Below, one piece after another: positions 4,015-21,002 of a stretch of 38,758 nt of DNA; within the stretch, counting starts at the first letter, position 1, and every line of letters begins with the position of its first letter. The notes beneath the pieces were generated by a model. It did no database searches. It was not told the DNA's origin and worked only from the letters and a program-made list of their open reading frames with translations. The DNA is taken from the UHGV virus genome UHGV-0370973, one strand, 5' to 3'. The position numbers and the translations under genes are program-made. The DNA comes from a virus.

Positions 4015-6158
4015 TGAAAAATGAAACTAATACCATGGCGACGAAAAACGACAACGGAGCCACGCCGCGTTTTTCTCAGCGCCAGTTACAGGCGCTTTGT
4101 TCTGATATTGACAGTCAGCCTAAATGGCGCGATGCCGCAAACAAGGCCTGTGCGTATTACGATGGTGACCAGTTGCCACCGGAAGTTCTCCAGGTGTTGA
4201 AAGATCGCGGTCAGCCGATGACCATCCATAACCTCATCGCGCCTACCGTTGATGGTGTTCTGGGTATGGAGGCCAAAACGCGGACTGATCTGTTGGTGAT
4301 ATCAGATGATCCTGATGATGAAACAGAAAAACTGGCTGAAGCTATTAATGCTGAATTTGCCGATGCTTGCCGCCTTGGAAATATGAATAAAGCCCGTTCT
4401 GATGCCTATGCGGAACAAATCAAAGCGGGGCTCAGCTGGGTGGAGGTCAGACGGAACAGCGATCCGTTCGGGCCTGAGTTTAAGGTGTCTACTGTCAGCC
4501 GGAATGAAGTGTTCTGGGACTGGCTCAGCCGGGAGGCTGATTTAAGTGACTGCCGCTGGCTGATGCGCCGCCGCTGGATGGATACCGATGAGGCAAAAGC
4601 CACATTTCCGGGAATGGCTCAGGTTATCGATTATGCCATTGATGACTGGCGTGGTTTTGTCGATACCACGGTTACTGAAGGCCAGCCCAGTCCGTTGATG
4701 AGTGCATGGGAAGAGTATCAGTCATGGGATCGACAGCAGAACGAATGGCTTCAGCGTGAACGCCGTCGTGTGCTGCTTCAGGTGGTTTATTACCGTACAT
4801 TCGAGCGTCTTCCGGTGATTGAACTCAGTAATGGACGGGTGGTGGCCTTTGATAAAAATAATCTGATGCATGCGGTGGCTGTGGCATCCGGGCGGGTGCA
4901 GGTGAGAGTCGGGCGGGTAAGTCGTATTCGTGAAGCCTGGTTTGTGGGACCGCACTTTATTGTGGATCGCCCCTGTAGTGCGCCGCAGGGGATGTTCCCG
5001 CTGGTTCCCTTCTGGGGATACCGGAAGGATAAAACCGGGGAGCCTTACGGGCTGATTTCCCGGGCCATTCCGGCACAGGATGAGGTGAATTTTCGTCGTA
5101 TAAAACTGACGTGGTTGCTTCAGGCCAAACGCGTGATTATGGACGAGGATGCCACCCAGTTGTCAGACAACGATCTGATGGAGCAGATCGAGCGTCCGGA
5201 TGGCATTATTAAACTGAATCCGGCCCGAAAAAATCAGAAAAGCGTTGCTGATGTTTTCCGGGTTGAACAGGATTTTCAGGTTGCCAGCCAGCAGTTTCAG
5301 GTCATGCAGGAGTCGGAAAAACTTATCCAGGACACGATGGGGGTTTATTCCGCATTTCTCGGGCAGGATTCAAATGCATCGTCCGGTGTGGCGATCAGCA
5401 ACCTGGTGGAGCAGGGAGCCACAACCCTTGCCGAAATCAACGATAACTACCAGTTTGCCTGCCAGCAGGTGGGAAGGCTGTTGCTCGCTTATCTTCTTGA
5501 TGACCTGAAAAAGCGGCGTAATCATGCGGTGGTGATTAATCGCGATGATCGTCAGCGTCGCCAGACCATTGTCCTCAATGCTGAAGGTGATAATGGTGAA
5601 CTGACCAATGATATTTCAAGGTTAAATACACATATTGCGCTGGCTCCTGTTCAGCAGACACCGGCGTTTAAGGCACAGCTTGCACAGAGAATGTCAGAGG
5701 TTATTCAGGGGCTGCCGCCTCAGGTGCAGGCTGTTGTGCTCGATCTGTGGGTTAATCTTCTGGATGTGCCGCAGAAACAGGAATTTGTCGAACGTATTCG
5801 TGCGGCGCTGGGGACGCCAAAATCACCGGATGAGATGACTCCGGAAGAGCAGGAAGCGGCAGCACAACAGCAGGCGCTGGAGCAACAGCAGGCAGAACTT
5901 CAGATGCGCGAAATGACAGGCCGGGTGGCTAAACTGGAAGCAGAAGCTGCCAGGGCACGCGCGGCTGCGCAACGGGATAATGCTGGCGCACAACGGGATG
6001 TCGCCGTGGCACAGGGACAGCGTTATGTGGATGCGCTTAACCAGGCACATACGGCAGAAATCATTACCGGCATACAGAATATGGAACAGGAGCAGGAAGT
6101 TCTTCAGCAACAGATGCTGCATACACTACAACAGCGGATGCATGAAATGCCGCTCTGA
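4014..6158 (+). CDS. Portal protein
   Basis: 714-aa ORF directly downstream of terL, with a long C-terminal Gln/Ala-rich coiled-coil tail (QQQALEQQQAELQMRE...) as in P22-type portals. Confidence 0.8.
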   Translation: MKNETNTMATKNDNGATPRFSQRQLQALCSDIDSQPKWRDAANKACAYYDGDQLPPEVLQVLKDRGQPMTIHNLIAPTVDGVLGMEAKTRTDLLVISDDPDDETEKLAEAINAEFADACRLGNMNKARSDAYAEQIKAGLSWVEVRRNSDPFGPEFKVSTVSRNEVFWDWLSREADLSDCRWLMRRRWMDTDEAKATFPGMAQVIDYAIDDWRGFVDTTVTEGQPSPLMSAWEEYQSWDRQQNEWLQRERRRVLLQVVYYRTFERLPVIELSNGRVVAFDKNNLMHAVAVASGRVQVRVGRVSRIREAWFVGPHFIVDRPCSAPQGMFPLVPFWGYRKDKTGEPYGLISRAIPAQDEVNFRRIKLTWLLQAKRVIMDEDATQLSDNDLMEQIERPDGIIKLNPARKNQKSVADVFRVEQDFQVASQQFQVMQESEKLIQDTMGVYSAFLGQDSNASSGVAISNLVEQGATTLAEINDNYQFACQQVGRLLLAYLLDDLKKRRNHAVVINRDDRQRRQTIVLNAEGDNGELTNDISRLNTHIALAPVQQTPAFKAQLAQRMSEVIQGLPPQVQAVVLDLWVNLLDVPQKQEFVERIRAALGTPKSPDEMTPEEQEAAAQQQALEQQQAELQMREMTGRVAKLEAEAARARAAAQRDNAGAQRDVAVAQGQRYVDALNQAHTAEIITGIQNMEQEQEVLQQQMLHTLQQRMHEMPL

Positions 6159-10066: not shown

Positions 10067-10716
10067 TGACGACGATTACTGAAATCATCGGACGAGTGAA
10101 CACGCAACTGGTTGACCCGATGATGGTGCGCTGGCCTCTGGCTGAGCTGTGTGATTATTACAATGATGCTGTGCGGGCGGTGATTCTGGCAAGGCCGGAT
10201 GCAGGCGCAAGTCTGGAGACGCTGAATTGTGTTCCTGGTGCACGTCAGACTTTGCCTGATGGCGCAATACAGCTTCTTGACGTGATATGCCTCAGCGATG
10301 GCAGTGCTATAAAACCGCAATCCCGTGAGGTGCTTGATGCACAGTATCCCGACTGGCACATGCTGAGGGGGAAACCGGAATGCTTTATCAGCAGTGACCT
10401 TGCCCCGCGCGTGTTCTGGCTGTTTCCGGCACCGGAGGAGGCTGTGAGTGTTGATGCTGTGGTCAGCCGCATTCCGGAGGCGGTGTATGTTCTGACGCAG
10501 GATGATGACACGCCTGTACCGCTGGAAGAGGCTTATGTTAACCCGCTGGTTGACTGGATGTTGTTTCGTGCATTCAGCAAGGATGCAGCCGGTGGTGCAG
10601 AGTCAGGACTGGCAGCACAACATTATCAGAGTTTTGTTGAGCAGCTCGGGATTAAACAGGGTGCAGACAGTGCATTGTCTGCCCGCAAGAAGGTGTTTAA
10701 CGGAGGTGGAATGTGA
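10066..10716 (+). CDS. Hypothetical virion protein
   Basis: 216-aa ORF coupled to its neighbours; its stop overlaps the GTG start of the tail fibre gene. Confidence 0.45.
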
Positions 10717-12647
10717 GTGTTGTTGTTTCGGGGACGCTGAAATCTCCTGATGGTGAGGCGATATCAGGCGCAAATATTACCCTGACGGCGCTGACAGTTT
10801 CACCGGATGCGCTCAGCGGCACCAGTGCGTCAGCAGTGACTCGTGACGGCGGGTATTACGGAATGACGCTGGAGCCGGGGGAGTATGCGGTTTCTGTGAC
10901 GGTGAAAGGGAAGACTGCTGTCTACGGACGTGTGCGTATTGAGGGGACTGAAAGTACGGTGACGCTCAATATGCTGTTACGCCGCAGTCTTGTTGAGGTG
11001 AGCATACCCGGAGAACTGCTGACAGATTTCCGGCAGATACAGAACAATGTGGCGGATGACCTTGCCACGATTCGTCGTCTGAACGAAGACACGGCGGTGA
11101 AAAATAATCAGGCTTCACAGTCGAAGGAAAGCGCTGCTGCCAGTGCGAAGACTGCATCAGAAAGCGCGAAGGCTGCGACCAGCAAAGCGACGGAGTCTGC
11201 ACAAAAAGCCAGTGAGGCTGCAGAGGCGGCGACCCGGGCAGGTGAGTCTGAAAAGGCAGCGGCAGCTGACGCTAAAGAGGCCAGACGACATGCTGAAACC
11301 GCCAGAGTGGCTCAGGAGGCCGCCGGAGACGTTCTTAAACGTGCTGAGGCTGCTACAGTTAGTGCTGAAGAAGCCAGACGTATGGCTGAGAATGCACGAG
11401 GACCTAAAGGCGATACAGGGCCGAAAGGTGATGCTGGTCCTCGTGGTGAAACAGGTCCGGCGGGTCCGCGTGGGGAGAAAGGTGAGCAGGGAGAGCGCGG
11501 ACCTCAGGGCATACCGGGCCAGAAAGGTGATACAGGAGAACGGGGACCTCAGGGAGTGCAGGGGCCAGCTGGCGCAACAGGGCCATCTGGCCCACGTGGT
11601 GCGACCGGGCCACAGGGAGCAATGGGGCCGCGTGGTGAAACCGGGGCCAGAGGCGAAAAAGGAGACCCGGGGGGGCCTCAGGGACCAAAGGGGGATGCTG
11701 GTCCGAGAGGTGAGCCGGGGCCGAAAGGTGACACCGGCCCACGTGGAGAGGCCGGACCACCCGGACCACAGGGTCCGGCAGGGCAAACCGGCCCGAAAGG
11801 GGATAAAGGTGAACCCGGCGCAACAGGTCCGGCAGGTCCCGCAGGCCCTCGGGGAGAAACCGGCCCCGCAGGTCCTGCGGGTCCCGCAGGCAGTGTCGCC
11901 AGTGTTCCGGATGCCAGCACATCACAGAAAGGTGTTGTACAGCTGAGCAGCGATACCAACAGCGATGATGAAACAAAAGCGGCAACCCCAAAGGCTGTGA
12001 AAGCGGTAATGGCAGAAGTGCAGGCAGCAAAAACGAAGGCAGAAGAGGCAGCAACCCGGGCAGCAGTCCCCGGACCGAAGGGGGACAGGGGGGAACCTGG
12101 CGCACCTGGTGCAGTGGGGCCCGCAGGCCCACGGGGACCGGCTGGTGCAGCTGGTCCCAAAGGTGATGCAGGCCCGGCAGGGCCACGAGGTGAAAGGGGT
12201 CCAGCGGGGGCACAGGGTGTTCCGGGGCCGGTTGGTCCGGCAGGTCCTGCGGGTAAAACGGGGCCACGAGGTTTGCAGGGAGAAACAGGAAGACAGGGCC
12301 CGACAGGTCCACAGGGCCCGACAGGTGAACCCGGACCACAGGGACCACAAGGGCCAACCGGAAGGCTGGTACCCGGGGAAATTTACAGCATCGGAACATA
12401 CATTATTGCCGCACTAGCCCCGTATATAACCGACATCGGCAGAACCTATCAGCCAGGAGAAACTGTATCGGGTTCACGCCTTAAGCGATGCGCCCTAATC
12501 AAAGACGAAAACGGAAACTATATGAAAGCTAACACCGATGGCATTGACGGCAACCTATCCTCAGTTCCGGGCTCATGGATGGTGTGTAATGAAATTACGT
12601 CGACAAATGACAATGAAAGCATCGGGCTGTTCCAGCGCGCATACTGA
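10713..12647 (+). CDS. Side tail fibre protein (lambda Stf-like) with collagen-like repeats
   Basis: GTG start. N-terminus [24 protein letters not shown] resembles lambda Stf MAVKISGVLKDGTGKPVQNCTIQL; central [28 protein letters not shown] matches the Stf motif [28 protein letters not shown]; two long Gly-X-Y tracts. Confidence 0.8.
11399..11890 (+). repeat. Collagen-like Gly-X-Y block 1 within the tail fibre
   Basis: About 160 residues of [23 protein letters not shown]..., with one register interruption (GDPGGPQG). Confidence 0.85.
12066..12365 (+). repeat. Collagen-like Gly-X-Y block 2 within the tail fibre
   Basis: About 100 residues of [25 protein letters not shown]... Confidence 0.85.
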
Positions 12648-12661
12648 CAGACAGGAGATGA

Positions 12662-13245
12662 ACATGAATGTGGAAAAAATAAGCAATCCGCAATGGGCAG
12701 ATAAAGAGCACACTGCTGTCAATTGCATGGTGAAGTTTGAGCACATTGAGCAGGCGGTTCCTTTCACTGCAACAGCCAGCGATACCGAAGCATACGGGCG
12801 GGATATTTATGCCGCTTGTCTGAGAGGAGAGGCCGGTGAAATTGCAGAATATGTACAGCCATCCATCAGCCCGGAAAAAGCCAGAGAACTCAAAACCGCC
12901 GGGATCAACGCCTGGCGTAATGCGATGGAAGCGGCGAACTACACGTTTGAGCACAATGGGCGTAAATGGGACTACGGGAAGTCAACGCAGACGCGTCTTG
13001 AGCCGTCGGTGGCGGCAGCGAAAGCGGGGAAACTGCCGGAGGCGTTTTTCTGGACGGATGCGGACAATAATGACGTACCGATGGACGCTGAAACACTGAT
13101 TGCTCTGAGTGCTGCTGCAGAGCAGGCGATGTTTACCAAAGGGATGGAAATCCACGTCCGGCAGCGCACCATGAAGAAAGAGCTGGAAAAGCTGACCAGT
13201 GCGGATGAGATACTGGCATACAGGGTTGGCTGGGCACAGGAATAA
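12662..13245 (+). CDS. Putative tail fibre assembly / chaperone-like protein
   Basis: Position directly after the fibre gene; RBS aggag six nt before ATG 12662. The 12538 start in the ORF track would overlap the fibre gene by 110 nt and is rejected. Confidence 0.4.
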
Positions 13246-13565
13246 CAGATAAAAATATGGGGGAAACATTTCTTTCCCTCATGAACTATTCCTCCTGTAA
13301 ATATTTTATGTTAACTGAATAGTTAATTTTTTCTGATGTTGTAATTTTGTTCACAAATTACAGTGTAAGCAGATGTGAAACAGCAAGTCTGACTGGGGTA
13401 AGTTTTTTCTGATATCTGTTCCGGCGGTGTGGTCGTATGCGTGAGCAGGTATGCCCAGAATAATGTAAGACAAATCCTAAATTTATAAAATTAATTTTTA
13501 AATTTATTTTCGGAATATCCTGAAAAAAGCCGTAATTAATCAGACTTTTTTATGAGTGTGAGGTG

Positions 13566-13593
13566 TTGCGGCTGATTTGTATACAGATAATTT
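13566..13593 (+). promoter_or_regulatory. Candidate sigma70 promoter for the eib-like gene
   Basis: TTGCGG-N16-TAATTT in an AT-rich region that is conserved upstream of both eib-like copies. Confidence 0.3.
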
Positions 13594-13608
13594 AACAGGA
13601 TATCCATA

Positions 13609-15072
13609 ATGAGTAAAAAGTTTACAATGACACTCCTGTCATCTTCTCTGGCCGGGCTTCTGGTGATGAGTGGTGGGGTGAGTGCGCAGGAAGAAAAATA
13701 CACAGTGCCGTATGCCACAGGTAACAATAAATGGGGGAATACCTATGAAGTTGTAAAGACAGGCGATAATGGTAACTTCAAATACGAAGTAAAAGAGAAG
13801 AACAACGGCAAGAGGACACTTTTCACATTTGATTCAAATGGGGATGTAATAATCAATGGCAGTGGCATTACGTACACAATTCATGACGGTGCGCTGAACG
13901 ATTTTGCTCAAACAGCTGAGAAAAAAAAGAATGGACCGTCTCAGTCGCACAGAATGACTGATAGCGTTGTTCGTGATGTATATAACAAAGTATACAGTCT
14001 GCAGAGAACAAAAATTACAGGTTTCAGCGTCGAAGATGGGGAGAATGGGAAGGTTTCTCTGGGTAGCGATGCGAAAGCCTCTGGTGAGTTCTCAGTAGCT
14101 GTTGGTACAGGGGCCAGAGCGGATAAAAAATTTGCAACAGCAGTGGGCTCATGGGCTGCTGCGGACGGTAAACAAAGTACAGCTCTGGGAGTGGGAGCAT
14201 ATGCCTATGCAGATGCTTCAACAGCCGCCGGAACAGCTGCTTATGTTGATGGTTCTGCTATTTATGGTACCGCTATAGGTAATTACGCAAAAGTGGATGA
14301 AAATGCAACAGAAGGTACTGCGTTAGGGGCAAAGGCAACAGTAACAAATAAAAACAGTGTTGCATTAGGAGCTAATTCACGCACAACCCGTGACAATGAG
14401 GTTTATATCGGTTATGAAGCAGAGCCGGGTAAGGCTTATAAAACCCGGGTGCTTGGTGGTCTGAGTGACGGTACTCGTCCCTCAGATGCTGCAACCGTTC
14501 GTCAGGTTGACCGTGTAAAAGACAGTGTTGAGCAACTGGCTCAGGATACGAATACCCGCCTTGTAGTCGAAGCGAAAAAGTCTCGTGAATATACAGACTC
14601 CAGAACGACAGTTGGTGTGAACCCTGACGGAAAACTTACCCGTGCAGAAGGTGCGACTAAAACTATCGCCGTCAATGATGGTCTCGTTGCTCTGTCTGGC
14701 AGAACAGACCGTATTGATTATGCAGTTGGTAGCGTTGACCGCCGGGTTACTAAAAATACACAGGCTATTCAGTCCAATACTCGCCAGTTGCAGGAGCATA
14801 ATGCACGCCTGAACAGTCAGCAGCGTCAAATTCGTGAGAATCACGAAGAGATGAAGCGTGCAGCAGCACAGAGTGCAGCGCTGGCGGGGCTTTTCCAGCC
14901 GTACAGTGTGGGGAAATTCAACGCCACTGCTGCCCTGGGGGGGTACAGTGATAAACAGGCTGTTGCCGTGGGTGTTGGTTACCGTTTCAACGAGCAGACC
15001 GCAGCGAAAGCGGGTATTGCAGCGAGTGATGGCGATGTGTCCTACAACATGGGCGTTAACTTCGAGTTTTAA
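13609..15072 (+). CDS. Eib-like trimeric autotransporter adhesin (YadA-type C-terminal anchor)
   Basis: Signal peptide [26 protein letters not shown]; YadA-head-like repeats ([26 protein letters not shown]); coiled-coil stalk; C-terminus [28 protein letters not shown]...YNMGVNFEF is a typical TAA membrane anchor ending in an aromatic residue. Confidence 0.85.
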
Positions 15073-15097
15073 TTGCTGAAAGTGACATGAAGTATGG

Positions 15098-15129
15098 CGG
15101 CAGGCGCAGGACTCTGGTCTGCCGTTTTT
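15098..15129 (+). terminator. Intrinsic terminator after eib-like gene 1
   Basis: Stem cggcag / ctgccg followed by TTTTT; the counterpart after copy 2 has stem cggcaggc / gcctgccg. Confidence 0.5.
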
Positions 15130-15160
15130 CATGGGGCATAAAAAACAGGAAGGTGCTGCG

Positions 15161-15631
15161 ATGAAGGTGATTCTGGCTACCAGGAACCGCTATCTGGAGT
15201 ATGGTCTGCAGGCGTTACTGAAGGGGCACAGTGTGATACTGGCGAGGGAGTTTTTCCTGCCGGAGAACCGCCGTTATATCCCGGACTTTGACGAATCCTG
15301 GCTGATAATCAGTGATGGCCTGCTGGGCAGGCTGATGCGCTGTATGTTCCAGGGGCGTCATTTTCTGCAACTGGATGCGGAGTTGCTCCGTGATGGTGAG
15401 CAGATAAGTGATGCCATACACAACGGCGTCTGGACGTATAACAGTGCTGCCCGCCCGCTGACGATGTCAGAGATGGTGGTGATGTTCGGTTATGTCTACC
15501 GCCAGTCGAGACCCTGCCGCCTTGCCAGTGAGATGGGTATTAACACAAAGACGGTGAATACCTTTCTGTATACGGGAATGGCGAAAAACGGGCTGTATGG
15601 TGTGAGCGTCAGACGGCTTGTTGGTGCCTGA
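15161..15631 (+). CDS. Atypical LuxR/FixJ-type transcriptional regulator with receiver-like N-terminus
   Basis: C-terminal LTMSEMVVMFGYVYRQSRPCRLASEMGINTKTVNTFLYTGMAKNGL fits the LuxR-type HTH pattern; N-terminal [20 protein letters not shown] resembles a receiver domain start but lacks the acidic pocket. RBS aggaagg lies 8 nt upstream of ATG 15161. Confidence 0.55.
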   Translation: MKVILATRNRYLEYGLQALLKGHSVILAREFFLPENRRYIPDFDESWLIISDGLLGRLMRCMFQGRHFLQLDAELLRDGEQISDAIHNGVWTYNSAARPLTMSEMVVMFGYVYRQSRPCRLASEMGINTKTVNTFLYTGMAKNGLYGVSVRRLVGA

Positions 15632-15681
15632 TGGCGGTCCTGCCGGATGCGCGGCATCTTCTGATGATTCAGAAGGTGCAG

Positions 15682-15813
15682 ATGATGAACAAAGACAGAG
15701 ACCGGAGATACGGGAGAAAACGTTACACCACAGGCGCAATGTGCTTCATGCTGTTTGTGTGGCTTGGTGGTGTGCTGGCTCTTGTTGCTACAGCTGCGGT
15801 GGTAATGCAGTAA
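15682..15813 (+). CDS. Small hydrophobic membrane peptide (43 aa), conserved in both cassettes
   Basis: MMNKDRDRRYGRKRYTTGAMCFMLFVWLGGVLALVATAAVVMQ has a basic N-terminus and one TM helix; RBS gaagg upstream; a paralogue with the same TM core lies at 34641..34766. Confidence 0.45.
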   Translation: MMNKDRDRRYGRKRYTTGAMCFMLFVWLGGVLALVATAAVVMQ

Positions 15814-15818
15814 AAAAA

Positions 15819-15837
15819 GGGGAGCAACATGCTCCCC
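15819..15837. terminator. GC hairpin flanked by an A-run upstream and no T-run downstream
   Basis: ggggagc-aacat-gctcccc directly after the small peptide stop; reads as a canonical terminator only on the minus strand. Confidence 0.35.
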
Positions 15838-15993
15838 GACCAGAAGAAAGACGTTTGATAACAATTAGTGAGTTGTTACGTCTTGTCCAGAATATCATAG
15901 CAACACTCTGTTGCAGTGATACCGATCGCGATTTTAGCGAATTCCATCATAAATCCCCTGATTTTTAAGCCTGAAGCAGTCAAAGGAATTTCT

Positions 15994-17619
15994 ATGCCCT
16001 ATATCGATATCACCACGATGCGTGGGATGATGCCGCGCGTTGTGACATCCATGCTGCCCGAGCATTCCGCTGTACTGGCGGAGGACTGCCATTTCCGGTT
16101 TGGTGTTATTACACCAGAACGTCAGATATCCGGGGTTGAGAAAACATTCACAATTAAGCCAAAAACAATTTTTCATTACCGTGACGATTTCTGGTTTGCA
16201 TGGCCGGATGTGGTGGATGTGATCCGCAGTCCGATCGCTCAGGACCCCCACGGGCGTATTTACTACACTGACGGGCGTTTTCCTAAAGTGACGGATGCGA
16301 CCATTGCCACAAAAGGGGACGGGAATCACCCGACATCATCGTATCGTCTGGGGATCCCCGCGCCGACGACAGCTCCTGTCTGTACTGTTCAGCAGGGCGG
16401 TGATGTTTCTGACGATAACCCGAATGATGATGAAACCCGGTTTTATACGGAAACCTTTGTCTCAGATTATGGTGAAGAAGGTCCGCCAGGTCCGGCGTCT
16501 CTGGAGGTAACACTCCGTACTCCGGGAACTGCGGTACAACTGACGCTGGCTCCGGTGCCATTGCAGAATGCCAGTATTAAACGTCGTCGTATTTATCGTT
16601 CTGCATCAGGTGGAGGGGAGGCGGATTTTTTACTTGTGGCTGAACTGGATGCATCCGTGCTCAGTTACACGGACAAAATACCGGCGAAAAACCTTGGACC
16701 TTCGCTGGCGACATGGGATTACCTGCCGCCGCCAGAGAATATGACAGGCCTTTGCCTGATGGCTAACGGTATTGCCGCCGGGTTTGCCGGTAATGAAGTG
16801 ATGTTTTCGGAAGCGTATCTGCCGTATGCATGGCCGGAAGTGAATCGTCACACGACGGCAGAAGATATTGTGGCTATCTGTCCGCTCGGAACATCACTGG
16901 TGGTGGCGACAAAGGGTGAGCCTTATTTGTTCAGTGGGGTCTCACCGTCCACAATTTCTGGTTCCAGAATCCCTTCAATGCAGGCGTGTCTGAGCAGGCG
17001 GAGTATGGTCGCGATGGAGGGCTTTGTGCTGTATGCAGGAACAAATGGCCTGGTGTCTGTTGATGCAAACGGTAATGCCGCTCTGGCGACGGAACAGATT
17101 ATTTCACCGGAACAGTGGCAGAGTCAGTTTAATCCGGCCTCCATTGTGGCTTATCCCTGGCGTGGTGAATACATTGCCTGTTACACGAAACCGGATGGTA
17201 AGCAGGATGTGTTTGTCTTCAGCCCGGCGAACATGGATATCCGGTACCTCAGTACGCCGTTTGACTGCGCATGTGTTGACCTGGTTAACGATGTTATGCG
17301 GGTGGTATCAGGACAAAACATGTCTGCGATTGCCGGAGGGAGTTTGCCGTCGACAATCAGATGGCATTCAAAGGTATTTTCCCTTCCGGAAAGAACCTCT
17401 TTTTCCTGTCTCAGTGTGAAGTCTCCGACGCCAGAGCGGGTGGGAATTACTGTGCTGGCTGATGATGTGCCGGTGATTCACCTTGCACCAGGAAGCTTTT
17501 CAGGACGCGTTGTGAGGTTACCTGCTGCAACCGGGCAAAACTGGCAGATGCTGGTTTCTGGTTTTGGTCAGGTTGAACGTATCACACTCAGTACATCGAT
17601 GTCGGAGCTGCCGGTATGA
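15994..17619 (+). CDS. Phage structural (probable tail) protein
   Basis: 541-aa ORF from the internal ATG MPYIDITTMRGMM with RBS aaagga; translationally coupled (ATGA) to the J-like gene. Confidence 0.5.
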   Translation: MPYIDITTMRGMMPRVVTSMLPEHSAVLAEDCHFRFGVITPERQISGVEKTFTIKPKTIFHYRDDFWFAWPDVVDVIRSPIAQDPHGRIYYTDGRFPKVTDATIATKGDGNHPTSSYRLGIPAPTTAPVCTVQQGGDVSDDNPNDDETRFYTETFVSDYGEEGPPGPASLEVTLRTPGTAVQLTLAPVPLQNASIKRRRIYRSASGGGEADFLLVAELDASVLSYTDKIPAKNLGPSLATWDYLPPPENMTGLCLMANGIAAGFAGNEVMFSEAYLPYAWPEVNRHTTAEDIVAICPLGTSLVVATKGEPYLFSGVSPSTISGSRIPSMQACLSRRSMVAMEGFVLYAGTNGLVSVDANGNAALATEQIISPEQWQSQFNPASIVAYPWRGEYIACYTKPDGKQDVFVFSPANMDIRYLSTPFDCACVDLVNDVMRVVSGQNMSAIAGGSLPSTIRWHSKVFSLPERTSFSCLSVKSPTPERVGITVLADDVPVIHLAPGSFSGRVVRLPAATGQNWQMLVSGFGQVERITLSTSMSELPV

Positions 17620-19803: not shown

Positions 19804-19882
19804 CGTAAGAAAAACTTTAATAGTGTAAAACGAAAGCGTTCCTTTCAGACATCGCATCCTTTAATTCAGAGAAATACTTAAA

Positions 19883-20620
19883 ATGAAAAGTATCATGAAA
19901 TTTTTTGCGTGTGCAGTTCTGGTGATGAGTTGCTTAACTGCACAGGTAAATGCAGCATCAGGCGATAGTACGGTATCTCTCGGGTTTGCACACATACGCT
20001 TCCCCGGGCTGAAGGATTTTGTTAGAGACGCGGGTGTTTATAACCGGGATACGTTCAGGAATGTTGTAAACGTAAACCATTTTAATTCATCAGCTGAATA
20101 CGAAAATGCTATTGCCCGGGGGCATGACGGCACAGCCAAAAGCCCCCTGGGGATGAGCATCAGGTATCGTTACGAGATAACTGATGAACTGGGTGTTATA
20201 GCCTCTTTTACATGGGCGCGCTCCATGACTAATGCGCAGGCATTTATTGATGTTAAGCCTTCCGATCCATCACGAGAGGTAAAAAACCCGGCAGCTTCAG
20301 CGAGAACTGATATCAGGGCTAATTACTGGAGTCTACTATCCGGTCCTTCGTGGCGGTTTAACGAATACCTCAGTGTGTATGCAATGGCTGGCATGGGGGT
20401 TGCAAAAGTCACCACTGACTTGAAAATTAACGACAATCTTAATCATGGTGCCGGTAGTTTTTCTGAAAGTAACAGCACCAAAAAAACGTCTATTGCATGG
20501 TCTGTCGGCGCGCAATTTAACTTCAATGAAAGTGTTACTATGGACGTCACTTATGAAAGCTCAGGCTCTGGCGACTGGAAAACTGATGGTTTATTTGCAG
20601 GCATTGGCCTGAAATTCTGA
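19883..20620 (+). CDS. lom: Lom/Ail/PagC-family outer-membrane beta-barrel protein
   Basis: Signal peptide MKSIMKFFACAVLVMSCLTAQVNA; C-terminus VTMDVTYESSGSGDWKTDGLFAGIGLKF matches lambda Lom VVDIAYEGSGSGDWRTDGFIVGVGYKF. Confidence 0.85.
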   Translation: MKSIMKFFACAVLVMSCLTAQVNAASGDSTVSLGFAHIRFPGLKDFVRDAGVYNRDTFRNVVNVNHFNSSAEYENAIARGHDGTAKSPLGMSIRYRYEITDELGVIASFTWARSMTNAQAFIDVKPSDPSREVKNPAASARTDIRANYWSLLSGPSWRFNEYLSVYAMAGMGVAKVTTDLKINDNLNHGAGSFSESNSTKKTSIAWSVGAQFNFNESVTMDVTYESSGSGDWKTDGLFAGIGLKF

Positions 20621-20642
20621 GTAATACCCGACAACATGTCAT

Positions 20643-20668
20643 AACCCGCTGTGATGGCGGGTTTTTTG
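20643..20668 (+). terminator. Intrinsic terminator after lom
   Basis: Stem cccgc / gcggg with loop tgtgatg, followed by TTTTTT. Confidence 0.6.
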
Positions 20669-20852
20669 TTGCCCGTGCAGGGCAAAAATCGTAGATTATG
20701 CGCGGGTGCCTTTCGGCTGATGGCTGGAGGGAGAACCTGAAGGCCTGATGTGGAAAGGCCCCGAGTCAAACATTTTGTTTAACCCGAGGCCCTAACCATC
20801 ATACCTTAAGCAAGTAGAAGGTTAGCGCCTCTCCACTCAGGAGGCAAGCGCT

Positions 20853-20993
20853 ATGTCGCAAAAATCGCTCATCACCGTCACAATTTGTATGACGGTAATC
20901 TTCACCATCTGGATGTTACACGGCTCGTTGTGTGAGTTCCGGCTGAATTTGTGGGGAGCGGAGTTTGCGGCGTTCTTACAGTGTAAGCAGTAG
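20853..20993 (+). CDS. Hok/Gef-family type I toxin (46 aa), absent from the ORF track
   Basis: MSQKSLITVTICMTVIFTIWMLHGSLCEFRLNLWGAEFAAFLQCKQ has a TM helix followed by SLCEFR and EFAAF, matching Hok KSLCEIR and EVAAF; RBS aggagg 8 nt upstream. Confidence 0.65.
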   Translation: MSQKSLITVTICMTVIFTIWMLHGSLCEFRLNLWGAEFAAFLQCKQ

Positions 20994-21002
20994 GAAAACC
21001 GC

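What the first reader, a model, noticed from the sequence alone, without database searches (positions are those of the whole stretch)
13335..15813. Cargo cassette of Eib-like trimeric autotransporter, atypical LuxR-type regulator and small membrane peptide inserted after the tail fibre genes
An AT-rich promoter-containing region, a YadA-type trimeric autotransporter with the Eib-type C-terminus (...YNMGVNFEF), its own terminator, a LuxR-HTH regulator and a 43-aa single-TM peptide together form a compact unit of lower GC content than the flanking phage genes. Prophage-borne Eib immunoglobulin-binding adhesins are established in E. coli, but a dedicated regulator plus membrane-peptide pair immediately downstream of each eib-like gene is not something I can place in a described system. 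It may be a self-contained adhesin-control module.
Basis: partly seen in the sequence, partly recalled or inferred. Interest (0 to 1): 0.7.

Follow-up and report, generated by a model that had tools for sequence, protein, structure and literature searches.

The report
Known Eib adhesin cassette, TosE-like regulator
This is one of two copies in this E. coli prophage of the long-known eib cargo cassette (immunoglobulin-binding adhesin gene, then "ORF-156" and "ORF-60"). ORF-156 turns out to be a relative of TosE, a LuxR-type regulator that sits behind another E. coli adhesin gene and has been linked to switching off motility.

Summary
Window 13609-15072 encodes a genuine Eib trimeric autotransporter. 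It is followed by a strong intrinsic terminator, a 156-aa protein (15161-15631) and a 43-aa single-TM peptide (15682-15813).

The arrangement is not new. GenBank AF151674-6 and AF151091 (P-EibC/D/E/A, 2000) annotate the same ORF-191/eib/ORF-156/ORF-60 order. The window holds a second copy at 32623-34766.

What I add:
- ORF-156 has no Pfam or NCBIfam hit. Its predicted fold is a degenerate receiver-like domain plus a GerE/LuxR helix-turn-helix.
- It is a full-length homologue of TosE of uropathogenic E. coli (32% identity, E 7e-31).
- The peptide is a real gene (dN/dS 0.04-0.24).
- In viral contigs found through the Eib anchor, 24 of 24 loci have the regulator 68-94 nt downstream, and 18 of 19 have the peptide.

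The regulator family also occurs without eib: intact in effector-carrying lambdoid prophages, and decayed as L0123 in 933W-type Stx phages.

Best reading: an adhesin-coupled, TosE-like trans-acting regulator with a membrane-peptide partner, expressed by terminator read-through. This mechanism is inferred, not shown. Verdict: new member of a known kind, moderate interest.

The parts
12664..13245 (+). ORF-191 homologue (DUF4376, tail-fibre-associated). It is the conserved left neighbour of eib cassettes.
   Evidence: Pfam DUF4376 E 2.4e-19. 99% identical to ORF-191C/D of P-EibC/D.
13246..13608 (+). AT-rich upstream/regulatory region of eib-1. Its right-hand ~310 nt (from about 13300) are repeated upstream of eib-2.
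   Evidence: GC 0.328. High identity to 32680-32983 over the region aligned from 13290. No consensus sigma-70 site on the + strand.
13609..15072 (+). eib-1: Eib-family trimeric autotransporter adhesin, 487 aa, EibC-like.
   Evidence: EibD structure 2XQH E 3.5e-95. 83% identical to EibC and 73% to EibD.
15096..15129 (+). Intrinsic terminator of eib-1 (GC-rich hairpin plus U5).
   Evidence: -26.5 kcal/mol, z -3.8. A stem_loop is annotated at the same place in AF151674/5.
15161..15631 (+). ORF-156: TosE-family regulator, with a degenerate receiver-like N-domain and a GerE/LuxR-type HTH.
15682..15813 (+). Conserved 43-aa peptide (the real product of 'ORF-60'), with a basic N-terminus and one TM segment.
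   Evidence: phrog_9340 E 7.6e-30. 8 DNA variants, dN/dS 0.04-0.24. The 17-codon N-terminal extension of ORF-60 is not conserved between cassette types.
15819..15837 (.). GC hairpin closing the cassette. Its T-run is on the minus strand. It is also present in 933W.
32623..32983 (+). Upstream region of the second cassette.
   Evidence: GC 0.371. 32680-32983 aligns with the copy-1 upstream region.
32984..34027 (+). eib-2: second Eib-like gene (347 aa). It has a different passenger and the same stalk and anchor, and carries a 78-nt inverted insert at 33698-33775.
34051..34086 (+). Terminator of eib-2.
   Evidence: -31.6 kcal/mol, z -4.4.
34114..34587 (+). Second TosE-family regulator (157 aa, 69% identical to copy 1).
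   Evidence: TosE tblastn E 1.9e-24.
34641..34766 (+). Second copy of the peptide (41 aa, MEQKKIRCGKRKYTAGAMCFMLFVWLGGVVTFCVLAALIMR).

Best explanation
The region is a copy of the classical prophage 'eib' cargo (moron) cassette.

Shown:
- An AT-rich upstream region precedes a gene for an Eib trimeric autotransporter adhesin, which ends in a strong intrinsic terminator.
- About 90 nt after the eib stop codon, on the same strand, lies ORF-156. It is a small cytoplasmic protein with a degenerate receiver-like domain and a GerE/LuxR helix-turn-helix, and a full-length homologue of TosE of the UPEC tosRCBDAEF adhesin operon.
- A conserved 41-43-aa membrane peptide follows it.
- The three genes are inherited as a unit across phage, plasmid-like and island backgrounds.

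Inferred:
- No consensus promoter is seen between the terminator and ORF-156. The regulator and peptide are therefore probably made from the fraction of eib transcripts that read through the terminator, so their level follows eib transcription at a lower dose.
- By analogy with TosE/TosF, the regulator acts in trans on other loci when the adhesin is on. The most likely targets are flagellar or other surface-structure genes.
- It may also feed back on the conserved eib upstream region.
- The peptide is its inner-membrane partner (tether or signal input). No kinase is encoded nearby and the receiver domain lacks the acidic pair.
For: Identity of the cassette: GenBank ORF-191/eib/ORF-156/ORF-60; Eib.

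Terminator.

Fold of ORF-156:
- AF2 pLDDT 85.5.
- Foldseek PDB top 30 are all NarL/FixJ-type regulators, prob 0.57-0.99.
- Profile versus PDB: top hit GerE, E 0.0048.

TosE homology:
- BLASTP 32% over 151 aa, E 7e-31.
- hhalign 99.9%, E 4.6e-32 over 153 columns.
- TosE hits both window copies and every family member checked at 30-38%.
- TosE lies directly 3' of the adhesin gene tosA.

Linkage:
- 24/24 loci have the regulator and 18/19 have the peptide.
- Divergent adhesin-regulator pairs.
- One island carries adhesin + TosE-like + TosF-like genes.

Peptide: coding signal.

Physiology: Eib levels respond strongly to static versus shaken growth, and no regulator has been assigned to this (PMC4352079; PMC5450701).
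Against: - No expression or binding data exist for ORF-156 or the peptide.
- No TosF or TosR (PapB-family) homologue is in the window, and TosE's own mechanism is unknown.
- The regulator fails the Pfam GerE threshold.
- Read-through is assumed. The terminator is strong, and a weak internal promoter would have been missed by the consensus scan.
- Intact family members occur without any adhesin next to them.
- The upstream regions of the two window cassettes are far more alike than their regulators, which are only 69% identical. There is thus no sign of regulator-promoter co-variation.
Confidence: 0.55

Rival explanations
1. Dedicated cis-linked controller. ORF-156 binds the conserved AT-rich region upstream of eib and activates or represses it, and the peptide modulates this. 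The module would be a self-contained autoregulatory adhesin switch.
For: Linkage to eib is invariable in anchor-seeded loci. It persists to 23-48% regulator identity in unrelated genomic contexts. The eib upstream region is conserved between the two copies. In 933W-type phages that lack eib, the regulator has decayed.
Against: Intact homologues exist with no eib nearby. The homologue TosE is associated with motility, and it is TosR that is reported to regulate the tos operon (PMC5956150). Enhanced Eib expression is credited to ibrB, encoded elsewhere (Sandt 2002 via PMC7649339). Upstream regions are not conserved across the divergent cassettes.
Confidence: 0.25
2. Hitch-hiking neighbours. The regulator and peptide are independent cargo genes, for example regulators of host or effector genes. 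They sit next to eib only through shared descent and the recombination structure of the post-tail-fibre slot, with no functional coupling to Eib.
For: The family occurs next to T3SS effector genes, PerC, PapB-family genes and classical autotransporters without eib. The cassette is mosaic: the same regulator type accompanies different Eib passengers and different downstream genes, L0124 or eaa.
Against: The adhesin-regulator order, strand and 68-94 nt spacing are kept in every anchor-seeded locus and across very divergent pairs. The relative TosE is likewise placed directly 3' of an adhesin gene.
Confidence: 0.15
3. The peptide is a small membrane toxin or exclusion factor (type I toxin-like), or else an inner-membrane helper of autotransporter biogenesis. 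In either case it is not a partner of the regulator.
For: It is 41-43 aa with a basic N-terminus and one TM segment. The hairpin just after it carries its T-run on the opposite strand. From prior knowledge, some trimeric autotransporters have dedicated helper proteins, such as SadB and TpgA. A BamE/OmpA-domain gene follows a large trimeric autotransporter in L080.
Against: No Rfam family is found in the window and there is no PADLOC hit. The peptide is separated from eib by the regulator. It is absent from the plasmid-like and L063/L073 island cassettes, which still carry adhesin + regulator.
Confidence: 0.1
4. ORF-156 and the peptide are ordinary phage structural, assembly or lysis genes of 933W-like phages.
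For: They lie inside the tail gene region, between the DUF4376 gene and L0124. PHROG families exist for both.
Against: Functional 933W-type Stx phages carry only a deleted, frame-broken remnant. The genes also occur in a plasmid-like contig and in non-phage islands. The fold is that of a transcription factor.
Confidence: 0.02

Closest known systems
eib cassettes of prophages P-EibA/C/D/E of E. coli ECOR-9 (GenBank AF151091, AF151674-6; Sandt & Hill 2000)
   Same: Same gene order ORF-191, eib, stem-loop, ORF-156, ORF-60, then L0124-like or eaa. ORF-156 is 97-100% identical in A, C and D and 69% in E. The position after the tail-fibre genes is the same.
   Different: This Eib is a variant (83% to EibC). 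Two cassettes sit in one 933W-like prophage. Those records give no function for ORF-156 or ORF-60.
TosE (c0364) of the tosRCBDAEF RTX-adhesin operon, UPEC CFT073
   Same: Full-length homologue of the same size (160 vs 156 aa; 32% identity, E 7e-31; hhalign 99.9%). It is encoded directly 3' of a non-fimbrial adhesin gene on the same strand, and it is a weak or sub-threshold GerE match.
   Different: The adhesin is a type Vc trimeric autotransporter rather than a T1SS RTX protein. There is no TosF partner and no PapB-family TosR in the window. A terminator separates adhesin and regulator. An extra conserved peptide gene follows the regulator. The cassette is prophage-borne.
TosF (c0365) and canonical LuxR/GerE-family proteins (PF00196)
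   Same: Four-helix GerE-type HTH at the C-terminus.
   Different: ORF-156 does not reach the Pfam GerE threshold. Similarity to TosF is limited to the HTH (E 0.05).
NarL/FixJ response regulators and small orphan LuxR-type regulators of E. coli (RcsA, GadE, DctR, MatA/EcpR; named from prior knowledge)
   Same: Receiver-like alpha/beta domain plus LuxR HTH. Foldseek top hits are LiaR, VraR, RcsB and EvgA. An Asp is invariant at the end of strand 3 (D52).
   Different: The protein is only 156 aa. There is no acidic pair after strand 1 (T7-R8-N9) and no kinase gene nearby. No sequence-level membership was shown.
HyxR/HyxA (AutA/AutR) next to the autotransporter UpaB/HyxB (PMC4844996)
   Same: LuxR-type regulators encoded beside an autotransporter adhesin. 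They bind its promoter and have wide regulons.
   Different: Not homologous beyond the HTH (hhalign E 0.063 and 0.23). They are larger proteins (264 and 253 aa) in a different gene arrangement.

Membership tests
Eib (E. coli immunoglobulin-binding trimeric autotransporters) | C-terminal YadA-type membrane anchor and YadA head repeats | tested here: met
   PF03895 E 2.3e-15, PF05658 E 2.4e-12.
Eib (E. coli immunoglobulin-binding trimeric autotransporters) | Close homology to characterised Eib proteins, including the stalk that carries the Ig-binding segments | tested here: met
   EibD structure 2XQH E 3.5e-95 over residues 151-396, and 2XZR E 7.8e-11. 83% identical to EibC and 73% to EibD.
Eib (E. 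coli immunoglobulin-binding trimeric autotransporters) | Non-immune binding of IgG/IgA Fc | not testable with these tools
   Needs Fc-binding blots.
eib prophage cassette (ORF-191/eib/ORF-156/ORF-60) | Same gene order and flanks as the deposited P-Eib loci | tested here: met
LuxR/GerE HTH family (Pfam PF00196) | Score above the Pfam gathering threshold | tested here: not met
   No hit at E<=0.01 for ORF-156. A homologue at 44% identity scores 21.6 bits against a cut-off of 23.5. TosE scores 19.7.
LuxR/GerE HTH family (Pfam PF00196) | Four-helix GerE-type DNA-binding fold | tested here: met
NarL/FixJ two-component response regulators | Receiver fold with phospho-acceptor Asp, acidic pair, conserved Thr/Ser and Lys | tested here: inconclusive
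   Foldseek full-length matches have E 3e-3 to 6e-2 but TM-scores of only 0.3-0.47. D52 is invariant, but the acidic pair is replaced by T7-R8-N9.
NarL/FixJ two-component response regulators | Cognate histidine kinase encoded nearby | tested here: not met
   None is annotated in the prophage.
TosE family | Full-length sequence homology to CFT073 TosE | tested here: met
   BLASTP E 7e-31, hhalign 99.9%, tblastn of both window copies.
TosE family | Gene directly 3' of a non-fimbrial adhesin gene, same strand | tested here: met
TosE family | Paired with TosF and with a PapB-family TosR | tested here: not met
   No TosF or TosR homologue in the window. A TosF-like partner is present in the L073 island version. 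A PapB-family gene precedes the P0045 and P0046 versions.
TosE family | Suppression of motility when expressed | not testable with these tools
   Needs soft-agar and fliC assays.
Type I toxin-antitoxin small membrane toxins (considered for the peptide) | Small hydrophobic toxin with an overlapping or adjacent antisense RNA | tested here: inconclusive
   The peptide fits in size and topology. No Rfam family is found. Only an opposite-strand terminator-like hairpin is present.

The most novel reading that the evidence does not exclude
TosE-family regulators, here together with a dedicated tail-anchored membrane peptide, would form a portable 'adhesin-coupled lifestyle switch'. Mobile elements would attach it to different classes of adhesin (RTX, trimeric and classical autotransporters). 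In eib prophages it would couple Eib production to repression of motility or other surface structures. It would also underlie the unexplained static-versus-shaken control of Eib and of chain-like adherence in LEE-negative STEC.
Probability: 0.25. Interest if true: 0.6.

Novelty: new member of a known kind. Interest (0 to 1): 0.38.

Why it matters
Eib and EibG adhesins drive serum resistance, immunoglobulin binding and chain-like adherence in commensal and Shiga-toxigenic E. coli. Their expression is strongly condition-dependent, and no regulator within the cassette has been assigned to this.

Recognising ORF-156 as a TosE homologue gives a 25-year-old 'hypothetical' gene a concrete, testable role. 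It also suggests that the reciprocal adhesion-motility logic known from the pap and tos operons is carried by phages together with the adhesin.

Two further points follow. A conserved 41-43-aa membrane protein has gone unstudied. And L0123, annotated as a gene in some 150 Stx-phage records, is only the wreck of this regulator.

Tried and rejected
- Pfam and NCBIfam scans of ORF-156 and the peptide gave no hits.
- A single-sequence search of the PDB gave only chance hits. The best was protein G at E 0.59, which I dismissed.
- Rfam on the whole window gave nothing at gathering score.
- PADLOC defence models gave nothing.
- The afdb50 fold library was unavailable.
- I tested whether ORF-156 belongs with AutA/AutR (= HyxR/HyxA), the regulators next to UpaB. 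It does not: hhalign E 0.063 and 0.23.
- I compared ORF-156 with TosF and found only HTH-level similarity.
- I looked for a conserved operator by aligning upstream regions from seven cassette types. Only closely related cassettes align.
- The consensus promoter scan found no + strand site.
- The primary papers (Sandt & Hill 2000; Sandt et al. 2002; Engstrom et al. 2014) are not in the held library. Their content is cited only through GenBank annotations and secondary papers.
- Literature searches for 'ORF-156' and for eibG + LuxR found nothing.
Full report
**What the window is.**

The window is a 933W-like (N4-gp56 capsid type) E. coli prophage. Across the finding it is 99.7% identical to a prophage of strain JNEC-KY173 that lies next to rcsD. 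The gene order around the finding is:
- tail fibre, 10713-12647;
- DUF4376 protein 'ORF-191', 12664-13245;
- the cassette;
- L0124-like protein, 15916-17619;
- tail-tip fibre protein.

**Checking the observation.**

*The adhesin.* The ORF at 13609-15072 (487 aa, ending YNMGVNFEF) is a genuine Eib.
- It hits YadA_anchor and YadA_head.
- It matches the EibD crystal structure at E 3.5e-95.
- It is 83% identical to EibC and 73% to EibD.

*The terminator.* Eib is followed by a GC-rich hairpin with a U-run (-26.5 kcal/mol, z -3.8).

*The regulator.* It is 156 aa (15161-15631). The ATG at 15131 is not conserved as a start.

*The peptide.* It is 43 aa (15682-15813).

*Composition.* The upstream region is AT-rich (GC 0.328). 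The 3' half of eib, the regulator and the peptide have ordinary GC. The consensus scan found no + strand promoter.

The 'low-GC unit' is only partly right, and 'promoter-containing' is unverified.

**The arrangement is already on record.**

A search of phage records returned GenBank AF151674, AF151675, AF151676 and AF151091, the prophages P-EibC/D/E/A of ECOR-9. These annotate orf-191, a stem-loop, eib, a second stem-loop, orf-156 and orf-60, followed by an L0124-like gene or eaa. The window's regulator is 97-100% identical to ORF-156A/C/D and 69% to ORF-156E.

The window also holds a second cassette:
- upstream region 32623-32983, of which 32680-32983 aligns with high identity to the region upstream of eib-1;
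- eib-2, 32984-34027;
- terminator;
- regulator, 34114-34587 (69% identical to copy 1);
- peptide, 34641-34766;
- the SPATE autotransporter gene eaa.

**What ORF-156 is.**

Sequence libraries say nothing about it.
- Pfam and NCBIfam give no hit. The PHROG family has no assigned function.
- The 67 homologue clusters are all from Escherichia, apart from one from Citrobacter. Most are named 'hypothetical'. A divergent branch is named 'LuxR family' by NCBI.

The predicted structure is informative. An AlphaFold2 model built on 21 sequences is confident (pLDDT 85.5, pTM 0.78).
- Foldseek against the PDB: the 30 best hits are all NarL/FixJ-type regulators (LiaR, VraR, RcsB, EvgA, StyR, DesR, VpsT, FixJ, DosR).
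- A family profile searched against PDB sequences ranks GerE first (E 0.0048), and the next nine hits are all LuxR-type proteins.

The N-terminal domain is receiver-like but degenerate. An Asp at the end of strand 3 is invariant, but the acidic pair after strand 1 is T-R-N. No kinase gene is nearby.

**The closest studied relative.**

Genomic contexts of divergent family members pointed to the tos operon. One island has a short trimeric autotransporter, a 68-aa ORF, a family member and a second GerE protein, all beside a giant RTX-like protein.

I fetched tosRCBDAEF from CFT073. The comparisons were:
- ORF-156 against TosE: 32% identity over 151 residues, E 7e-31.
- The family profile against TosE: 99.9% probability over 153 columns.
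- TosE against the window: both copies are found.
- The island regulator against TosE: 37% identity. Its neighbour against TosF: 42% identity.
- ORF-156 against TosF: similarity only in the HTH.

[quoted passage not shown] HyxR/HyxA (AutA/AutR), the LuxR-type regulators beside UpaB, are not related to ORF-156.

**The peptide.**

Eight DNA variants from different cassette types all keep an open frame. It encodes a Lys/Arg-rich N-terminus, an invariant GAMCFMLFVWLG core and a hydrophobic tail. Synonymous sites are near saturation and dN/dS is 0.04-0.24.

The 17-codon extension that makes up 'ORF-60' is not conserved, so the product is 41-43 aa. A Shine-Dalgarno-like AAGGTG lies just upstream of the start. 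Homologues occur only in E. coli and are unnamed, or named 'putative ORF-60D'.

**Linkage.**

*Loci seeded with the regulator* (50 IMG/VR loci) fall into three groups:
- 23 loci (L011-L033) carry a full-length regulator. All 22 with upstream sequence have Eib coding sequence directly upstream, and most are followed by the peptide.
- 12 loci have an intact 68-69% homologue after a lambda-like tail fibre, with neither eib nor the peptide.
- 15 loci have a shortened copy followed by L0124. In most of them it is a two-piece remnant.

The second group includes phage 2B8, where the regulator is followed by nleG and other effector genes. In E2348/69 it is a pseudogene.

The third group is 933W itself and about 150 Stx-phage records. 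There, L0123 is the N-terminal part of the regulator. The C-terminal part and the end of the peptide gene survive out of frame, followed by the same hairpin.

*Loci seeded with the Eib anchor*:
- All 24 loci with at least 200 nt downstream have a family member starting 68-94 nt after eib.
- 18 of 19 with at least 700 nt downstream have the peptide.
- The exception, L115, is very divergent. Its regulator matches the family at hhalign 96.8%. It is followed by a 31-aa ORF with a similar core (KAAFIFALSVWSVAV), which I identified by eye.

*Other adhesin-regulator pairs:*
- at the end of a tailspike prophage;
- on a plasmid-like contig with ccdAB;
- in IS-rich islands.

*Other family members* sit after a PapB-family gene, near PerC, Hha or a classical autotransporter.

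*Complete E. coli genomes:* 642 of 5426 match the query made of the eib 3' end plus the regulator. 70 match it nearly in full.

**Interpretation.**

Shown:
- the identities of the three genes;
- the terminator;
- the unit-like inheritance;
- the TosE relationship.

Inferred:
- expression of the regulator and peptide by read-through of the eib terminator;
- a TosE-like trans role, with motility or surface-structure genes as targets;
- possible feedback on the eib upstream region;
- a membrane-partner role for the peptide.

The dedicated-controller idea is not excluded, but several facts weaken it. Intact family members exist without eib. Enhanced Eib expression is attributed to ibrB (PMC7649339). 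The two window cassettes have much more similar upstream regions than regulators. Eib proteins are up-regulated in static culture by an unknown route, which gives an obvious phenotype to test.

**Verdict.**

This is a real, correctly described cassette that has been known as an arrangement since 2000. The regulator is a new member of the TosE/LuxR-type kind. The peptide is a conserved, uncharacterised small membrane protein. Interest is moderate.

Noticed in passing
window 33698-33775 and 34115-34192: A perfect 78-nt inverted repeat. An inverted copy of the first 78 nt of the second regulator gene sits in frame inside the coiled-coil stalk of eib-2, replacing about 27 nt that eib-1 has. None of 69 matching complete E. 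coli genomes carries it, including the otherwise 100% identical JNEC-KY173. It could be a template-switch mutation or an assembly artefact. It probably disrupts Eib-2.
   Followed up: partly
window 38050-38758: The 3' end of the window is rearranged within eaa. There is a 67-nt perfect inverted repeat (38274-38340 and 38573-38639) and a 119-nt perfect direct repeat (38050-38168 and 38640-38758). Eaa residues 1100-1199 are encoded on the opposite strand. This points to a local inversion-duplication or a misassembly.
   Followed up: partly
L006 (933W) 5638-6050; about 150 Stx-phage records: The gene annotated as L0123 in 933W-type Stx phages is a decayed remnant of the TosE-like regulator. Residues 21-77 are retained at 61% identity. 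After an internal deletion come out-of-frame remains of its C-terminus and of the peptide gene, then the same hairpin.
   Followed up: yes
window 15819-15837: The hairpin after the peptide gene has its T-run on the minus strand and an A-run before it on the plus strand. It looks like a terminator for leftward transcription from the 15840-15915 spacer. It is conserved in 933W. No Rfam family matches.
   Followed up: partly
window 13609-15072 vs L001 8310-9821: eib-1 is 48 nt (16 codons) shorter than the otherwise near-identical gene of JNEC-KY173 (1464 vs 1512 nt). I did not map where the indel lies.
   Followed up: no
L061 5657-6747 (JNEC-KY173): In the closest genome, the second eib gene is interrupted by an IS4-like ISAba1-family element and annotated as a pseudogene. 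In the window it has no such insertion.
   Followed up: no
L073/L062 (chromosomal island): A divergent short trimeric autotransporter is followed by a 68-aa acidic ORF, a TosE-like gene, a TosF-like gene, Pmp3, an MscS paralogue and a PAPS-reductase/DUF3440 protein. All lie next to a giant RTX/GA-like protein. From memory, IbrA of the Eib-activating IbrAB island has this PAPS-reductase/DUF3440 make-up. I did not verify this.
   Followed up: no
window about 19880-21000: Further cargo genes lie downstream in the tail region: an Ail/Lom outer-membrane protein and a Hok/Gef toxin. Both are annotated in the near-identical genome, in a low-GC stretch.
   Followed up: no
window 15404-15484 (ORF-156 residues 82-108): A weak local resemblance to the B domain of streptococcal protein G (NGVWTYNSAARPLTMSEMV vs DGVWTYDDATKTFTVTEMV; E 0.59). 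I judge it to be chance, but it is curious next to an Ig-binding protein gene.
   Followed up: no
window 15916-17619: The L0124-like protein matches only positions 314-859 of the 862-residue phrog_511 ('internal virion protein'). Other members of that family are therefore about 310 residues longer at the N-terminus.
   Followed up: no
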